The position numbers and the translations under genes were made by a program. 4,533 nucleotides of DNA from a virus (taxonomy: Duplodnaviria > Heunggongvirae > Uroviricota > Caudoviricetes), in the IMG/VR virus record IMGVR_UViG_2711768021_000006, one strand, 5' to 3'. Below are positions 1-4,533 of the stretch, one piece after another. Positions within the stretch are counted from its first letter, which is position 1. Every line of letters begins with the position of its first letter. A model generated the notes under the pieces. The model ran no database searches and had not been told where the DNA came from. It saw only the letters and a list, made by a program, of their open reading frames with translations.

Positions 1-60
1 CTCTCGTCTGGGGAATATCTCCCCGGCAGCCTTCAGGGAAAAATATCATCAGATGGCTGC

Positions 61-414
61 TTAAAAAAAGAACAAATGGTAGTGTCCGCTATTGCCAGTA
101 CACCTCAATTGCTCTGCGGCTTCGCTCAGAGCTGGCGTATGTTCCCGGCCTACTGATTCACACAGGTAATCAACGAAACCGGACACCAGTTTTCGTTCGC
201 GAGGCGTGATCGCCCCACCGACCGGAGTCCAGTAATCGAAACCCAGTTGCAGGAGTTTGAAAAAACGCTTGTGGAATGCGTAGTTACACACACGCTTAAA
301 GTCTGCGTGTATCCACTCACCTATTTTGATTTGATGCAGAAAATCGCAACTCTCCGGCGTCGCCGGGAGAAGTAATCCGGAAGAGGTTTGTTTGACCAGT
401 TGTATATGTGCCAT
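61..414 (-). CDS. Hypothetical protein, 117 aa (MAHIQLVKQTSSG...), second gene of a two-gene cassette
   Basis: Open frame on the minus strand with stop at 61-63. ATG at 412-414 is preceded by GGAGA 6 nt upstream. The ORF track extends to a TTG at 456 that overlaps the upstream stop (TTGA), but the ATG with a Shine-Dalgarno is the more credible start. Codon usage looks coding. No family recognised. Confidence 0.55.
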   Translation of the reverse strand: MAHIQLVKQTSSGLLLPATPESCDFLHQIKIGEWIHADFKRVCNYAFHKRFFKLLQLGFDYWTPVGGAITPRERKLVSGFVDYLCESVGREHTPALSEAAEQLRCTGNSGHYHLFFF

Positions 415-981: not shown

Positions 982-1447
982 GGTCACTCTTACTTCCTGG
1001 ATTCGTAGTCTANNNNNNNNNNNNNNNNNNNNNNNNNNNNNNNNNNNNNNNNNNNNNNNNNNNNNNNNNNNNNNNNNNNNNNNNNNNNNNNNNNNNNNNN
1101 NNNNNNNNNNNNNNNNNNNNNNNNNNNNNNNNNNNNNNNNNNNNNNNNNNNNNNNNNNNNNNNNNNNNNNNNNNNNNNNNNNNNNNNNNNNNNNNNNNNN
1201 NNNNNNNNNNNNNNNNNNNNNNNNNNNNNNNNNNNNNNNNNNNNNNNNNNNNNNNNNNNNNNNNNNNNNNNNNNNNNNNNNNNNNNNNNNNNNNNNNNNN
1301 NNNNNNNNNNNNNNNNNNNNNNNNNNNNNNNNNNNNNNNNNNNNNNNNNNNNNNNNNNNNNNNNNNNNNNNNNNNNNNNNNNNNNNNNNNNNNNNNNNNN
1401 NNNNNNNNNNNNNNNNNTGAAGCAGATAGCCTCAAGCACCCGCAGTC

Positions 1448-1477
1448 ATTCTACTTACCTCGCCAATATGAAATCAA
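1448..1477 (-). promoter_or_regulatory. Sigma70-like promoter (minus strand): -35 TTGATT (1472-1477), 18-nt spacer, -10 TAGAAT (1448-1453)
   Basis: Minus strand: TTGATT-tcatattggcgaggtaag-TAGAAT-GACTGCGG. Same hexamers and GACT-downstream context as the element at 822-849. Fires into the N-run at 1013-1417. Confidence 0.4.
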
Positions 1478-1498: not shown

Positions 1499-2185
1499 TC
1501 ACTCCTTCTCTTCTTTACCGTAGTGGAGTTGACCAATTTTGATAAGAGGGCGTCCCTGAGATTTGCGGTGTAGATTGGTATCGCGCAGAGAATACACACA
1601 GCCACAATATTCCTGCTGATAGAATTTTTCGCGCTTGCTGATTTCAATCATACGGGACGAGCCGCCCTGCTTGCGCCAGTTATAATCCCAGTACACCATG
1701 CCCGGATAATGCGCGACGGCTCGCCGCCCACAGTCGTTAACCTGCTGCATATTTTTCCAGCGTGAAATGCCCAGTGAACTGCTGATCACACTGAAACCAT
1801 TTTCAGCGGCGTACAGCGCTGTCCGCTCAAAACGCATGTCAAAACACATGGTGCAACGGATCCCTCGTTCGGGCTCCCATTCCATTCCTTTGGCTCGTTC
1901 AAACCAGTTGTCTGTGTCGTAATCAGCATCAATAAACGGCACGCCGTGTTGTTCAGCAAAGCGAATATTCTCATCCTTACGAATTAAATACTCTTTCTGA
2001 GGATGAATGTTCGGGTTGTAGAAAAAGATGGTGTAGTCGATTCCCGAGGCCTGAAGCGCCTCCATCACCTCACCGGAACATGGAGCACAGCAAGAGTGCA
2101 GTAGTAGTTTGTTTGCCCCGTTTGGGAGCTCCAATTTGGGCCGTTTGAAATCAGCAACTGTCATAAATATGTTTATTGGGGTCAT
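1499..2185 (-). CDS. queH: QueH-family (DUF208) epoxyqueuosine reductase-like Fe-S protein, 228 aa
   Basis: Translation contains [11 protein letters not shown] near the N-terminus, an internal CTMC, and [12 protein letters not shown] near the C-terminus, which I recall as hallmark Cys motifs of the DUF208/QueH family. ATG at 2183-2185 (alternative ATG at 2162-2164); neither has a clear Shine-Dalgarno. Stop TGA at 1499-1501. Confidence 0.7.
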
Positions 2186-2332
2186 AAAAATATCAAAGAG
2201 TGTAGCATTAGAACGGGGCTATCGGAAACAGATGTGTGACTGCTCCCCGCCCTTTCGGGTGGTCTCCTGATGATTTGAGGGTGCAGAAATCCCTCCGGTT
2301 AAGGATTAAATTTTTAACAGTGCTAAATTTAA

Positions 2333-2689
2333 TTATTCAGTTCTGGATTTTGTCGCCCTGCGTATCCGCGCTTTCGCGTTACGCTCAATCTGTATCAGCT
2401 TTTCTATATTTCTCCGCCTTTCCTGTTCCTCCTGGCGCAATAGCCTTACATCATCTGCCAGTCTGGTTTCTCTTTTTGCCACAGAGAGCATCCAGTCAAA
2501 CGGCTCCACAACCGCACCGCAGATTTTACAGCGGACCTGACGCTCTTTTTCGTCAACCCGTACAGAGGCGTGATGGCAATATGGTCTTTCCGATGGCTCA
2601 TAAAGAAAATTAACCTGATTACGAGGGTCATCCTCTTTTACCGGAAATAAAACGATATTGCTTAACTCATCTTCTGGTTTTATTTCCAT
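2333..2689 (-). CDS. Small zinc-ribbon-like protein with charged, probably helical C-terminal tail, 118 aa
   Basis: ATG at 2687-2689 preceded by AGGAGAGGAG. Translation MEIKPEDELSNIVLFPV...YCHHASVRVDEKERQVRCKICGAVVEPFDW gives a C-H-H...CxxC cluster, followed by an R/E/K-rich tail. The ORF track's longer version starts at 2746, directly abutting the upstream stop, which is less likely. Confidence 0.6.
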   Translation of the reverse strand: MEIKPEDELSNIVLFPVKEDDPRNQVNFLYEPSERPYCHHASVRVDEKERQVRCKICGAVVEPFDWMLSVAKRETRLADDVRLLRQEEQERRRNIEKLIQIERNAKARIRRATKSRTE

Positions 2690-2746
2690 GCTCCTCTCCT
2701 TTGATGCGAATGCCAGCGGTAATTGAAGCCTGATAGCTAATTTCAT

Positions 2747-3169
2747 TCACAGTATCGCCTCCTGAAAATTACCCTGATAGAAAGCCAGTACACGCTGCAT
2801 AGCTTCGCTCTTCCGGCACTCGCGACAGATTATATTCAGGCGCCTGTCGTAGCGGCGTATTTCTCCGTCAGGTAATGACCAGATAAGGTCCGGATCAACA
2901 ACAACCGGTTTCCTCACCTTTACTCTCGAGAGTTTTTTGCGGGCGCTTTGCCAGTCCTTGCGAGCCTGTTCAGACGGGAATAAGCCGTAGCCAGAATTAT
3001 ATACATCACCACTTGCGACCAGTTCTATGCATAAGCGACCGACAGACGCACGACTGATACCTGTTTCATCTGACAACTGCCGAATCGTGACCCGACCGTC
3101 CTGATGCACGAGTTCCACAATTCGCGTCTTCAGTTCTTCCCGCTGTTCGGGAGTAAAAGGTTTCGCCAT
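2747..3169 (-). CDS. Winged-helix/HTH DNA-binding protein, 140 aa
   Basis: ATG at 3167-3169 with strong AGGAGGA Shine-Dalgarno. N-terminal segment VTIRQLSDETGISRASVGRLCIELVASGDV looks like an HTH recognition helix. Tightly packed after the DnaC-like stop (14-nt intergenic). Confidence 0.65.
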   Translation of the reverse strand: MAKPFTPEQREELKTRIVELVHQDGRVTIRQLSDETGISRASVGRLCIELVASGDVYNSGYGLFPSEQARKDWQSARKKLSRVKVRKPVVVDPDLIWSLPDGEIRRYDRRLNIICRECRKSEAMQRVLAFYQGNFQEAIL

Positions 3170-3183
3170 AAATCCTCCTGAAA

Positions 3184-3745
3184 CTACTTAACAACCCTCG
3201 AATGGCTAACATTCGGACGCCAGCTCTCCCAGTTAAAATTCACCCAGCGCCCGCCGTTCATNNNNNNNNNNNNNNNNNNNNNNNNNNNNNNNNNNNNNNN
3301 NNNNNNNNNNNNNNNNNNNNNNNNNNNNNNNNNNNNNNNNNNNNNNNNNNNNNNNNNNNNNNNNNNNNNNNNNNNNNNNNNNGATAGCTGCCGCTAAGTG
3401 ATTCTTCCCGGTACCAGGTTTTCCGCTGAACGCAAAATTTGTACACCCGGTCATCAGTTCATCGGCGATGGATTTCGCCTGGCTTAACGCGTATCGCTGG
3501 CCGTCGTTCTGCACCTGGTAATTCGCAAACGAGCATTTACGGTGCAACGGCTGGATGCCTGAGCGATTCAGAATTTTTTCCACCCGCAACTGGCGATTCA
3601 GGCGGTTGATCTCCTCGCTACGTTTCTGGCCTTCAGCAAGTTGCCACTCGCGCCACTCCGCTACCGTTCTGAATGGGGCGGTTACATGTGGCGGGGTCAG
3701 TCGGCGGATGCGTTCCAGAACGCCGCCTGTCGCAATATTTTTCAT
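3184..3745 (-). CDS. DnaC-like replicative helicase loader (prophage paralogue), interrupted by assembly gap 3262-3382
   Basis: N-terminal 121 aa (MKNIATGGVLERIRRL...NRSGIQPLHRKCSFANYQ...FSGKPGTGKNHLAAAI) aligns by eye with E. coli DnaC, including the Walker A motif. After the N-run, a different frame (codons from 3261 down to stop TAG at 3184-3186) gives GGRWVNFNWESWRPNVSHSRVVK, matching the DnaC C-terminus (..LWVIFNWDSYRSRVTGKEY). About 100 residues are unaccounted for, so the 121-nt N-run under-represents the true sequence. Confidence 0.8.
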
Positions 3746-4100
3746 GGTCCGTTACCCCCTGAAGCCTGGCGGGATCGCACTGTCCGGCAACGAGACGGTG
3801 TTAACCTGTCGGAGCAACGTCTCAGGCCGAACACCTTTCGGCGCGAACAGGCCCTGGTATTCATTGGCGATGCTGTGTCGAATCACCTGCTCAGGTGTAA
3901 AACCCTGCTGACGGAATTTTTCCAGTTCCCGTATCGCCCCGTTAGCGCCCTGCTCCGTTCGAATCGGTTTTCGCAATGCCTGTCTGAACCGGACCCACTC
4001 ATGCCAGAGTGTTTCCGGCAACCAATCGGGCAGCTCAATAGCCTCCGGCTCGAATTTTTTAGACGCTCGTTTTTGGCGAGGGGGAGATCAGTATTTAGAT

Positions 4101-4120
4101 CTTCCTCTTCCTCTTCCTCT
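4101..4120. repeat. Tandem hexanucleotide repeat (CTTCCT)x3.3, encoding (Glu)6 on the minus strand
   Basis: cttcctcttcctcttcctct read directly. Falls in the linker frame of the initiator gene. Confidence 0.6.
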
Positions 4121-4230
4121 GGTAACGCTTTTTGATCCGTTTGTGTAACGCTGGCAGCGTTACCTTTTCGTTTCAGTTCGCGTATTTTTGTTACTCGCTC
4201 GTTTGTAACCGCCCGTTTTTTTTAGAGCTT
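4119..4230. repeat. Iteron-like cluster of GTAAC/GTTAC motifs with dyad symmetry plus T-rich tracts; candidate replication origin inside the initiator gene
   Basis: GTAAC at 4122, 4145 and 4205; GTTAC at 4159 and 4190. Perfect inverted repeat GTAACGCTG-g-CAGCGTTAC at 4145-4163. T-rich runs at 4129-4133, 4165-4173, 4185-4189 and 4216-4223. A related dyad GTAACGC-cgcga-GCGTTAC lies at 4354-4372. Confidence 0.45.
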
Positions 4231-4428
4231 TTTCCGTTATGACGTTCAAAGTTAGGTAGAGAAAGCCCTCCGTCATTTTCGACCAGCCATCCAACCTGAA
4301 TTAACGCATCAGCAAAACCAGACATAAAAGTGATGCGATCTATTGCACTTTTTGTAACGCCGCGAGCGTTACAATCTGCATTACCGTCTATCATTTGTTG
4401 ATCCGCCCATGCCCAGAAGCGAATAACC

Positions 4429-4533
4429 TGAGGTAGCCTGAGTTTAACGGACACTCCTTCCTGAAATAGAATGGCATCAGAAGGAGCTAATAATGAGCAG
4501 AAAAACCCAACGTTACTCTAAAGAGTTCAAAGC
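4429..4533 (+). mobile_element. Left end of an IS3-family insertion sequence (IS600-like), running off the window
   Basis: Sequence from 4429 begins TGAGGTAGCCTGAG..., and IS3-family ends typically start TGA. The orfA start follows about 64 nt later. The N-terminal peptide MSRKTQRYSKEFK matches my recollection of IS600 OrfA. The right end is not in the window, so the boundary is approximate. Confidence 0.55.
4493..4533 (+). CDS. IS3-family transposase OrfA (IS600-like), 5' partial at window edge
   Basis: AGGAG at 4481-4485 followed by ATG at 4493. Translation MSRKTQRYSKEFK... continues beyond the window. Confidence 0.55.
   Translation, partial: MSRKTQRYSKEFK

What the first reader, a model, noticed from the sequence alone, without database searches (positions are those of the whole stretch)
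1499..2185. QueH-family (DUF208) Fe-S enzyme encoded in a prophage replication/nin-like module
The translation carries the [11 protein letters not shown] and YCGC motifs I associate with QueH, the B12-independent epoxyqueuosine reductase that completes queuosine on tRNA. Enterobacteria normally use the unrelated QueG for this step, so a QueH homologue downstream of phage DnaT-like and DnaC-like genes is unexpected. It could be a phage tRNA-modification enzyme, or a repurposed member of a 7-deazaguanine pathway. No TGT/DpdA-like partner is visible in this window, so a DNA-modification role is pure speculation.
Basis: partly seen in the sequence, partly recalled or inferred. Interest (0 to 1): 0.65.

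Follow-up and report, generated by a model that had tools for sequence, protein, structure and literature searches.

The report
Prophage-borne QueH epoxyqueuosine reductase
This is an intact copy of QueH, the vitamin-B12-independent enzyme that finishes the tRNA base queuosine, carried by a lambdoid prophage; databases already name it, about 18% of complete E. coli genomes have it alongside the B12-dependent QueG, and it most likely lets the cell complete queuosine without B12.

Summary
The minus-strand ORF 1499..2185 (conserved start probably Met8, 1499..2164, 221 aa) matches Pfam QueH over the whole profile (E = 1.9e-65). Its AlphaFold model superposes on T. maritima QueH (TM 0.92, rmsd 1.4 Å). 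All six motif cysteines are kept. The Asp13-equivalent position is Cys, as in all 120 Enterobacterales-type homologs examined.

The gene is not new. RefSeq names it QueH in 995 of 5,426 complete E. coli genomes, and all 5,426 also carry queG. It is 89–92% identical to chromosomal queH of Enterobacter and Scandinavium and about 84% identical to that of Providencia, so a phage captured it from an enterobacterial chromosome. It always sits between the replication module (DUF977) and the hokD/nin region. It is under strong purifying selection (dN/dS 0.03–0.06).

The complete prophage in a near-identical genome has no tgt/dpdA, queCDE or folE, so a DNA-modification role is not supported.

Best explanation: a working oQ→Q reductase acting on host tRNA and giving B12-independent queuosine. 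Whether it benefits the lysogen or the lytic phage is untested.

In this window the prophage is a 4.3-kb remnant between two IS600 copies.

The phage carriage appears undescribed in the literature I could search. Interest is low to moderate.

The parts
1499..2164 (-). QueH coding sequence from the conserved start Met8 (221 aa plus stop); identical to RefSeq WP_012421537.1, 'epoxyqueuosine reductase QueH'
   Evidence: ORF. Pfam QueH E = 1.9e-65. PGAP CDS in the 100% identical copy of FDAARGOS_944. Start supported by the A10 allele and by homolog N-termini.
2165..2185 (-).
   Evidence: The A10 allele has ATT and an in-frame TAA here. Chromosomal homologs lack this extension.
2078..2092 (-). CCAPC motif (C32, C33, C36 in 228-aa numbering; equals C9, C10, D13 of T. 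maritima QueH)
   Evidence: Alignment to 7lc5. C32 and C33 are invariant in 240 homologs. Position 36 is Cys in 120/120 Enterobacterales-type homologs and Asp 107 / Cys 12 / Asn 1 in the Thermotoga-type set.
1844..1855 (-). CTMC motif (C111, C114; equals C87, C90 of T. maritima QueH)
   Evidence: C114 is invariant in 240/240 homologs and C111 in 239/240 (one Arg in the Enterobacterales-type set); both are invariant in alignment A1.
1598..1606 (-). CGC motif (C194, C196; equals C169, C171 of T. maritima QueH)
   Evidence: C196 is invariant in 240/240 homologs and C194 in 239/240 (one Val in the Enterobacterales-type set); both are invariant in alignment A1.
2165..2229 (-). About 60-nt upstream block that travels with the gene in all prophage alleles. 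It contains the invariant TGCTACAC(T) at 2207..2199, which resembles an extended -10 element. It is a candidate own promoter and is not validated.
   Evidence: Alignment of six alleles with different upstream neighbours. Homology profile. The consensus scan did not call a promoter here. No Rfam element.
2333..2746 (-). Context: 137-aa zinc-ribbon-like ORF (PHROG 1621, function unknown), present between DUF977 and QueH in only some prophages
   Evidence: 10 of 80 IMG/VR contigs.
2747..3169 (-). Context: DUF977 / Ren-like HTH protein, the constant upstream neighbour of QueH
3233..3745 (-). Context: DnaC-like helicase loader (ydaV type), partly masked by N (3262..3382); its true 3' end cannot be read in the window
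3752..4429 (-). Context: O-like/YdaU-type replication initiator, defective here. It has +2 A in an A run and a 10-nt deletion relative to the intact 262-aa gene, and its 5' end is cut by IS600.
1013..1417 (.). Context: masked stretch that corresponds to the hokD toxin region in the near-identical genome
   Evidence: 405 N versus 279 nt in L001.
1..107 (+). Context: 3' end of an IS600 (IS3 family) copy, truncating the DUF1367/NinB-like gene
4430..4533 (+). Context: 5' end of a second IS600 copy (the transposase ORF begins MSRKTQRYSKEFK at 4493)

Best explanation
The ORF encodes a functional QueH. This is the cobalamin-independent iron-sulfur epoxyqueuosine reductase that converts epoxyqueuosine (oQ) to queuosine (Q) at position 34 of tRNA-Asp, -Asn, -His and -Tyr.

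A lambdoid phage lineage captured the gene from an enterobacterial chromosome. It now travels as a small cassette (about 60 nt of upstream sequence plus the CDS) in the cargo slot between the replication module and the hokD/nin region.

E. coli supplies the substrate, because it makes oQ-tRNA through its own Tgt and QueA. Its own reductase, QueG, needs cobalamin. The phage gene therefore gives the cell a second, B12-independent way to finish Q.

Shown here: family membership, fold, conserved cysteines, capture from a chromosomal lineage, constant slot, purifying selection, and co-existence with queG.

Inferred: catalytic activity in E. coli, which tRNAs it acts on, and the B12-independence benefit.

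Unknown: whether it is expressed from the repressed prophage (benefit to the lysogen) or only from the early-right transcript during lytic growth.
For: Family and fold:
- Pfam QueH, E = 1.9e-65, full profile length.
- phmmer to the T. maritima QueH crystal structure 7lc5, E = 5e-22.
- AlphaFold model pLDDT 93.5 and pTM 0.89. The top PDB fold hits are all QueH entries (7lc5: TM 0.92 normalised to target, rmsd 1.4 Å); the next hits are only generic PP-loop/AANH folds with E of about 1e-5.
- Cysteines C32, C33, C111, C114, C194 and C196 are conserved in 239-240 of 240 homologs each and invariant in alignment A1.

Origin:
- 79-92% amino-acid identity to QueH of many Enterobacterales.
- The four homolog contexts I examined are chromosomal and non-phage: Providencia next to tmcA/dapE/purC, Photorhabdus, Enterobacter next to mnmA-nudJ-rluE-icd, and Scandinavium.
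- Only 1 of 80 species-level loci (E. albertii) shares the phage neighbours.

Maintenance:
- dN/dS is 0.025-0.06 among prophage alleles, with dS up to 0.45.
- 985 of 995 E. coli copies cover at least 80% of the CDS, and every row listed is annotated QueH.
- At least 80 IMG/VR contigs hold copies at 99% identity or more.
- The isolated temperate phage HannyBb carries it.

Context:
- queG is present in 5,426 of 5,426 genomes.
- The QueG step depends on cobalamin (PMC4646009).
- QueH is a validated non-orthologous replacement for QueG (PMC5372724).
- Co-existence of QueG and QueH is documented in S. aureus (PMC13443448) and in streptococci (PMC12632869).
Against: - There is no experimental evidence for this protein or for any prophage copy.
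- T. maritima Asp13, which was targeted by mutagenesis (PDB 9dco, D13N), is Cys here. This is the norm for the enterobacterial subfamily, but I could not read the structure paper to learn the role of that residue.
- No convincing Shine-Dalgarno sequence precedes either candidate start. No promoter or terminator was called by the consensus scan next to the gene.
- As far as I know, the physiological difference between oQ-tRNA and Q-tRNA in E. coli is small, so the selective benefit is unclear.
- Part of the low dN/dS could reflect divergence accumulated while the gene was chromosomal, if there were several captures.
Confidence: 0.78

Rival explanations
1. The enzyme is the same, but it serves the phage rather than the lysogen. 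It is transcribed with the early-right (pR) operon after induction or infection and converts oQ-tRNA to Q-tRNA to tune decoding of NAU/NAC codons in phage late genes. It is silent in the prophage state.
For: The gene has the same orientation as the replication and nin genes and lies inside the early-right transcription unit. No strong own promoter or terminator was found. A viable temperate phage, HannyBb, keeps the gene.
Against: A lytic cycle is short compared with the time needed to re-modify the tRNA pool. The gene stays intact in a decayed, IS600-bounded remnant where the pR region is no longer adjacent. A conserved 60-nt upstream block with a -10-like element travels with the gene. The prophage's own tRNAs are not Q substrates.
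Confidence: 0.2
2. Passenger gene. The captured queH gives no benefit in E. coli, which already has QueG, and persists only by linkage to the phage backbone.
For: queG is universal in E. coli. As far as I know, queG mutants have no strong phenotype. The slot is a general cargo site that also holds unrelated genes.
Against: dN/dS is 0.025-0.06 over dS up to 0.45. Intact copies are found in about 985 genomes, with all catalytic motifs kept.
Confidence: 0.1
3. The gene is part of a phage 7-deazaguanine DNA-modification pathway (for example, making a Q-like base in DNA).
For: Only that QueH belongs to 7-deazaguanine chemistry and that phages use such bases in DNA (PMC6884629).
Against: The complete prophage in the 99.9% identical genome has no dpdA/tgt, folE, queD, queE or queC. 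Nor were any seen in the ±6-8-kb contexts of four other E. coli prophages and phage HannyBb. Hutinet et al. found no dQ in any phage DNA they tested. The protein is 89-92% identical to chromosomal tRNA-pathway QueH.
Confidence: 0.02
4. The gene has a defence or counter-defence role, suggested by its position in a slot that also carries restriction-modification and Kiwa systems.
For: NgoMIV-type R-M plus Dcm, or KwaB-like genes, lie immediately downstream of QueH in some prophages.
Against: No PADLOC model matches QueH. QueH occurs with or without those systems. Its sequence is that of a chromosomal QueH of the kind found in non-phage contexts.
Confidence: 0.04

Closest known systems
QueH (DUF208, Pfam PF02677 / IPR003828), structurally defined by Thermotoga maritima QueH (PDB 7lc5, 7lc7, 9deu)
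   Same: Full-length HMM match. About 30% identity to the T. maritima protein, with TM 0.92 and rmsd 1.4 Å. The CC, CxxC and CxC cysteines are the same.
   Different: Cys replaces T. maritima Asp13 (the CCAPC versus CCAPD subtype). It has about 25 extra C-terminal residues and a short N-terminal extension. It is encoded on a prophage rather than a chromosome.
Chromosomal QueH of Enterobacterales (Scandinavium 92%, Kluyvera 91%, Enterobacter 89-90%, Erwinia 86%, Providencia 84%, Photorhabdus 80%)
   Same: Same subfamily and the same CCAPC/CTMC/CGC motifs. Nearly co-linear over the whole length.
   Different: The homologs whose contexts I checked sit among chromosomal, non-phage genes. This copy sits between phage replication and nin genes and carries a phage-lineage-specific 60-nt upstream block.
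[quoted passage not shown]
   Same: It catalyses the same reaction (EC 1.17.99.6). It is present in the same cells: queG is in 5,426 of 5,426 E. coli genomes.
   Different: The fold and cofactor are unrelated. QueG needs cobalamin (PMC4646009). QueH is a non-orthologous replacement (PMC5372724).
Phage 7-deazaguanine DNA-modification clusters (DpdA with FolE/QueD/QueE/QueC; Hutinet et al. 2019)
   Same: Both are phage-carried genes from the queuosine/7-deazaguanine pathway.
   Different: Those clusters make preQ0-type bases and insert them into DNA with DpdA. They were reported to lack QueA/QueG/QueH. Here a lone late-pathway tRNA enzyme is present with no DpdA and no preQ0 genes.

Membership tests
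QueH (PF02677 / DUF208) epoxyqueuosine reductase | Significant full-length match to the family profile, above the curated threshold | tested here: met
   220.6 bits against a cut-off of 23.5, E = 1.9e-65, profile positions 1-174 of 175. No NCBIfam model matched, but PGAP names the identical protein QueH.
QueH (PF02677 / DUF208) epoxyqueuosine reductase | Fold of solved QueH | tested here: met
   AlphaFold2 model pLDDT 93.5. Foldseek top five hits are all T. maritima QueH entries; 7lc5 gives E = 6e-14, TM (target) 0.92, rmsd 1.4 Å.
QueH (PF02677 / DUF208) epoxyqueuosine reductase | Six conserved cysteines (CC..., CxxC, CxC) that are candidate ligands of the [4Fe-4S] cluster and the adjacent iron | tested here: met
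   C32, C33, C111, C114, C194 and C196 are present. Each is conserved in 239-240 of 240 homologs and all are invariant in alignment A1. The exact assignment of ligands comes from my memory of Li et al. 2021, which could not be read here.
QueH (PF02677 / DUF208) epoxyqueuosine reductase | Acidic residue at T. maritima position 13 (Asp13; a D13N mutant structure, 9dco, was deposited) | tested here: inconclusive
   Here it is Cys36. The same Cys occurs in 120/120 Enterobacterales-type QueH and in 12/120 Thermotoga-type homologs. It is therefore a normal subfamily variant, but functional equivalence cannot be judged with these tools.
QueH (PF02677 / DUF208) epoxyqueuosine reductase | Converts oQ-tRNA to Q-tRNA without cobalamin | not testable with these tools
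   This needs complementation of a queG mutant and LC-MS of tRNA nucleosides.
QueH (PF02677 / DUF208) epoxyqueuosine reductase | The host supplies the substrate (a Tgt/QueA pathway is present) | not tested
   It is established for E. coli that the full Q pathway exists (abstract of PMC5372724). Only queG was checked here.
Phage 7-deazaguanine DNA-modification system (Dpd-type) | A DpdA/TGT-like transglycosylase in the same phage | tested here: not met
   None is present among the annotated genes of the complete prophage, int to ipaHb, in the 99.9% identical genome.
Phage 7-deazaguanine DNA-modification system (Dpd-type) | preQ0 synthesis genes (folE, queD, queE, queC) in the same phage | tested here: not met
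   None is annotated in the complete prophage, nor in the ±6-8-kb contexts fetched for four other E. coli prophages and phage HannyBb.
Moron / lysogenic-conversion cargo gene of lambdoid phages | A discrete cassette found in a fixed slot with variable flanking modules | tested here: met
   Across 80 IMG/VR contigs and 5 genomes the order is DUF977 > QueH > (hokD or Dcm+NgoMIV or Kiwa) > one of two nin types. Shared homology runs from about -60 nt to the stop codon.
Moron / lysogenic-conversion cargo gene of lambdoid phages | Own promoter and terminator allowing expression from the repressed prophage | tested here: inconclusive
   A conserved TGCTACAC(T) -10-like element lies in the upstream block, but the consensus scan called no promoter or terminator there. 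No expression data were available.
Known anti-phage defence systems (PADLOC) | Match to a defence-system protein model | tested here: not met
   No PADLOC family matched at E <= 0.01.

The most novel reading that the evidence does not exclude
Lysogenic conversion of the tRNA epitranscriptome. A lambdoid-phage cargo gene, present in roughly one in five E. coli genomes (including ST131 and O157:H7 strains), makes the last step of queuosine synthesis independent of vitamin B12. E. coli takes up B12 rather than making it de novo (my own knowledge; not checked here), so carriers would have fully Q-modified tRNA in corrinoid-poor niches where non-carriers would stall at epoxyqueuosine. That could affect decoding of NAU/NAC codons and the fitness of the lysogen or the phage. 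It would also be the first documented phage-borne Q-specific tRNA-pathway enzyme, contrary to the 2019 statement that no virus analysed encodes QueA/QueG/QueH.
Probability: 0.4. Interest if true: 0.55.

Novelty: already known. Interest (0 to 1): 0.3.

Why it matters
The enzyme family, its reaction and its structure are established, and RefSeq already names this exact protein, so the identification adds nothing new.

What is not in the literature I could search is that a Q-specific tRNA-modification enzyme is routinely carried by temperate coliphages. A 2019 survey stated that no such gene was found in the viruses it analysed.

The gene also gives about 18% of complete E. coli genomes a cobalamin-independent back-up for QueG. 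If it is active, Q status in E. coli would depend on prophage content and on B12 supply. That is relevant to strain-to-strain differences in translation and to experiments that use oQ or Q as read-outs. It can be tested with a simple complementation and LC-MS experiment.

Tried and rejected
- **DNA-modification role.** Rejected. No dpdA/tgt, queCDE or folE in the whole prophage.
- **Action on phage-encoded tRNAs.** Rejected. The prophage tRNAs have anticodons CAT, TCT, TGT and TCC, none of them a GUN anticodon.
- **Defence-system membership.** No PADLOC hit.
- **Riboswitch or other RNA element near the gene.** No Rfam match at E <= 1 in the whole window.
- **Promoter and terminator consensus scan.** Nothing was called next to the gene: 3 promoter-like sites in 2.1 kb against 2.0 expected, and no terminators.
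- **Primary QueH papers.** Zallot 2017 (PMC5495094), Li 2021 (PMC8884141) and Miles 2011 (PMC3088584) are not held. Ligand roles therefore rest on my memory and on PDB entry titles.
- **Literature on prophage QueH.** Searches for QueH + prophage, QueH + queuosine + phage, epoxyqueuosine reductase + prophage, and the RefSeq accessions plus COG1636 found no paper discussing it. Several 'QueH' hits were author names such as Quehenberger and Quehl.
- **2012 suggestion that DUF208 is linked to RuvABC/Holliday-junction resolution** (PMC3403352). It predates the QueH assignment. Clustering of Q-pathway genes near ruv may explain it (my inference, not tested).
- **Deposited-phage search.** Only one isolated phage, HannyBb, carries a close copy. 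The other hits are unannotated metagenomic fragments or oversized records that probably include host DNA.

Full report
**1. The observation**

The window has an uninterrupted ORF on the minus strand at 1499..2185 (228 aa from the first ATG). The finding did not give the strand, which is minus.

Three lines of evidence put the conserved start at Met8, giving window 1499..2164 (221 aa):
- One E. coli allele (strain A10) has ATT and an in-frame stop in place of the first ATG.
- Chromosomal homologs begin within 2–3 residues of Met8.
- PGAP aa in the 100% identical copy.

**2. What the protein is**

- Pfam QueH (PF02677) matches at E = 1.9e-65 and 220.6 bits against a cut-off of 23.5, covering profile positions 1–174 of 175.
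- PHROGs places it in phrog_3217, 'unknown function', so phage databases hold it without a name.
- phmmer against the PDB finds only T. maritima QueH (7lc5 and related entries), E = 5e-22.
- An AlphaFold2 model built on a 38-sequence alignment is confident (pLDDT 93.5, pTM 0.89).
- The five best Foldseek PDB matches are all QueH entries. 7lc5 gives TM 0.92 normalised to the target and rmsd 1.4 Å. After those come only generic adenine-nucleotide α-hydrolase folds (TtuA, argininosuccinate synthase and others), with E-values about eight orders of magnitude weaker.

*Cysteines and the Asp13 position.* In an alignment of 240 homologs, C32, C33, C111, C114, C194 and C196 (228-aa numbering) are each conserved in 239–240 sequences, and all six are invariant in the 38-sequence alignment A1. 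They correspond to T. maritima C9, C10, C87, C90, C169 and C171.

The one difference from the crystallised enzyme is at T. maritima Asp13, which is Cys36 here. That position is Cys in all 120 Enterobacterales-type homologs. In 120 Thermotoga-type homologs it is Asp in 107, Cys in 12 and Asn in 1. CCAPC is therefore an ordinary subfamily variant and not a lost ligand. Deposited mutant structures (C9S in 9d86, D13N in 9dco) show that others consider these positions important. I could not read the structure paper, so the exact ligand roles rest on my memory of it.

**3. Where it comes from**

The protein is 79–86% identical to QueH of Erwinia, Photorhabdus, Providencia, Proteus, Gibbsiella, Pantoea, Serratia and others. 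In a one-genome-per-species scan it is:
- 99% identical to a copy in E. albertii;
- 92% to Scandinavium, 91% to Kluyvera and 89–90% to Enterobacter species;
- still 76–80% identical to copies in alpha-, beta- and other gammaproteobacteria.

Only the E. albertii locus shares the phage neighbours. In the other contexts I examined the gene lies among chromosomal, non-phage genes:
- Providencia: next to tmcA, dapE and purC.
- Photorhabdus: among non-phage genes.
- Enterobacter sp. ECC-175: mnmA–nudJ–rluE–icd–chorismate mutase–queH.
- Scandinavium: among non-phage genes.

The prophage gene is therefore a captured enterobacterial chromosomal queH. E. coli does use QueG, but QueH is common as a chromosomal gene elsewhere in the order.

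**4. Context in E. coli**

The CDS occurs in 995 of 5,426 complete E. coli genomes (18%). It covers at least 80% of the gene in 985 of them, is almost always chromosomal, and is annotated 'epoxyqueuosine reductase QueH' in every row listed. Carriers include ST131, O157:H7, O111, APEC O1 and strain 042. queG is present in all 5,426 genomes, so carriers have both enzymes.

In the 99.9% identical genome (FDAARGOS_944) the gene lies in a complete lambdoid prophage between ybhA and pgl. The gene order is: int … cI/cro … YdaT, O-like, ydaV (DnaC-like), DUF977, a 137-aa ORF, QueH, hokD, hypothetical, DUF1367, DUF1364, DUF1133, four tRNAs, lysis, head and tail genes, ipaHb. That prophage has no tgt/dpdA, queC/D/E or folE. 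Its tRNAs have anticodons CAT, TCT, TGT and TCC, none of which is a Q substrate.

The slot is constant in four further genomes, in the isolated temperate phage HannyBb and in 80 IMG/VR contigs. QueH directly follows DUF977, sometimes with the 137-aa Zn-ribbon ORF in between. It precedes hokD, a Dcm+NgoMIV restriction-modification pair or a Kiwa-like pair, and then one of two nin-region types.

Homology shared by all prophage alleles runs from about 60 nt upstream of Met8 to the stop codon. That upstream block contains an invariant TGCTACAC(T), which resembles an extended −10 element. The consensus scan called no promoter or terminator there, and there is no Rfam element in the window. An own promoter is a hypothesis only.

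**5. Is it maintained?**

Among six prophage alleles, dN/dS is 0.025–0.06 with dS up to 0.45. For example, window versus ST131 shows 19 synonymous and 2 non-synonymous differences, and ST131 versus A10 shows 46 and 12. All motif cysteines are kept. This argues strongly against a decaying passenger. One caveat is that some of the divergence could predate capture if there was more than one capture event.

**6. This particular window**

The window is not an intact prophage.
- Positions 1–107 are the 3′ end of an IS600. Positions from about 4430 to 4533 are the 5′ end of another IS600 in the same orientation.
- The DUF1367/NinB-like gene is truncated at the left IS.
- The O-like initiator has two frameshifting indels relative to the intact gene and is cut by the right IS.
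- The two N runs do not preserve length: 405 N replace 279 nt, and 121 N replace 306 nt of the near-identical genome. Frames across them cannot be trusted.
- QueH itself is 100% identical to the copy in the intact prophage.

**7. Mechanism**

Established knowledge:
- E. coli makes oQ-tRNA through its own Q pathway. The last step is carried out by QueG and depends on cobalamin (PMC4646009, citing Frey 1988).
- QueH is a validated non-orthologous replacement for QueG (PMC5372724, citing Zallot 2017).
- QueG and QueH co-exist in S. aureus and in some streptococci. There, different cofactor dependence is thought to be the reason (PMC13443448; PMC12632869).

My best explanation is that the prophage gene encodes an active oQ→Q reductase that acts on host tRNA-Asp, -Asn, -His and -Tyr. 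It would make Q formation independent of B12. Identity and fold are shown; activity and benefit are inferred.

Whether it is expressed in the lysogen (a moron) or only from the early-right operon during lytic growth is open. I give the lytic-only version about 0.2, a functionless passenger about 0.1, a defence-related role about 0.04 (no PADLOC hit) and a DNA-modification role about 0.02.

**8. Comparison with what is known, and novelty**

The protein passes every testable membership criterion for QueH. It fails the defining criteria for a phage Dpd-type DNA-modification system. Because RefSeq already names the identical protein QueH in about a thousand genomes, I rate it 'already known'.

The only fresh angle is the carriage by temperate phages. 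Hutinet et al. 2019 stated that no QueA, QueG or QueH homologs were found in the viruses they analysed (PMC6884629). None of my literature searches found a paper discussing a prophage QueH.

That makes a modest, easily testable hypothesis: prophage-dependent, B12-independent queuosine in about 18% of complete E. coli genomes. Interest is 0.3.

Noticed in passing
window 1-107 and 4430-4533: Both window ends are IS600 (IS3 family) sequence in the same orientation: the 3' end of one copy on the left and the 5' end, with the transposase start MSRKTQRYSKEFK, on the right. The phage DNA in between is therefore a 4.3-kb remnant bracketed by two IS600 copies, which suggests an IS-rich (Shigella/EIEC-like) source genome.
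   Followed up: yes
window 3752-4429 (minus strand): The O-like/YdaU-type replication initiator is defective here. It has an A8 run instead of A6 (about 4214-4222), a 10-nt deletion, and loss of its 5' end to IS600, compared with the intact 262-aa gene at L001 22498-23286.
   Followed up: yes
window 1013-1417 and 3262-3382: The masked N runs do not have the length of the sequence they replace in the 99.8% identical genome (405 N versus 279 nt over hokD; 121 N versus 306 nt inside the DnaC-like ydaV). ORFs that cross them in the ORF list are artefacts.
   Followed up: yes
window 2333-2746 (minus strand): A 137-aa ORF with a weak TFIIB-type zinc-ribbon match (PHROG 1621, function unknown) lies between DUF977 and QueH. 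It is present in only about 10 of 80 related viral contigs, so it is a separate optional insert.
   Followed up: partly
L009 3806-5816; L011 4153-5792: The position immediately downstream of QueH is a cargo hotspot. It holds an NgoMIV-type restriction enzyme plus Dcm methylase in an O157:H7 prophage and many IMG/VR contigs, a Kiwa KwaB-like pair in FDAARGOS_1277, and hokD elsewhere.
   Followed up: partly
L001 17161-17471; L003 8761-10587: The intact version of this prophage carries four tRNA genes (anticodons CAT, TCT, TGT, TCC) upstream of the lysis genes, and the T3SS effector gene ipaHb at its far end. None of the tRNAs is a queuosine substrate.
   Followed up: partly
L017 2677-5669: In Enterobacter sp. 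ECC-175 the chromosomal queH (89% identical) lies about 1 kb from icd. In E. coli, icd is a lambdoid/e14 prophage attachment site (from my own knowledge). This could be a route for capture by a phage, but it was not examined.
   Followed up: no
L002 2229-4990 (Escherichia phage HannyBb): The deposited annotation has about 20 tiny 'hypothetical protein' CDS (90-170 nt) in a row between the Q-like antiterminator and the holin. ARAGORN finds no tRNA there, so this looks like over-annotation of a non-coding or repeat region. QueH itself is annotated only as a hypothetical protein in this phage.
   Followed up: no
protein P0121: The cluster representative labelled T. maritima QueH has Asn at position 13. 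It apparently matches the engineered D13N mutant (PDB 9dco) rather than the wild type, which is a trap for alignment-based ligand checks.
   Followed up: partly
window 1448-1477 (minus strand): A sigma-70-like site (TTGATT, 18-nt spacer, TAGAAT) lies just downstream of the QueH stop and points into the masked hokD region. It plausibly belongs to the hok/sok locus rather than to QueH.
   Followed up: no
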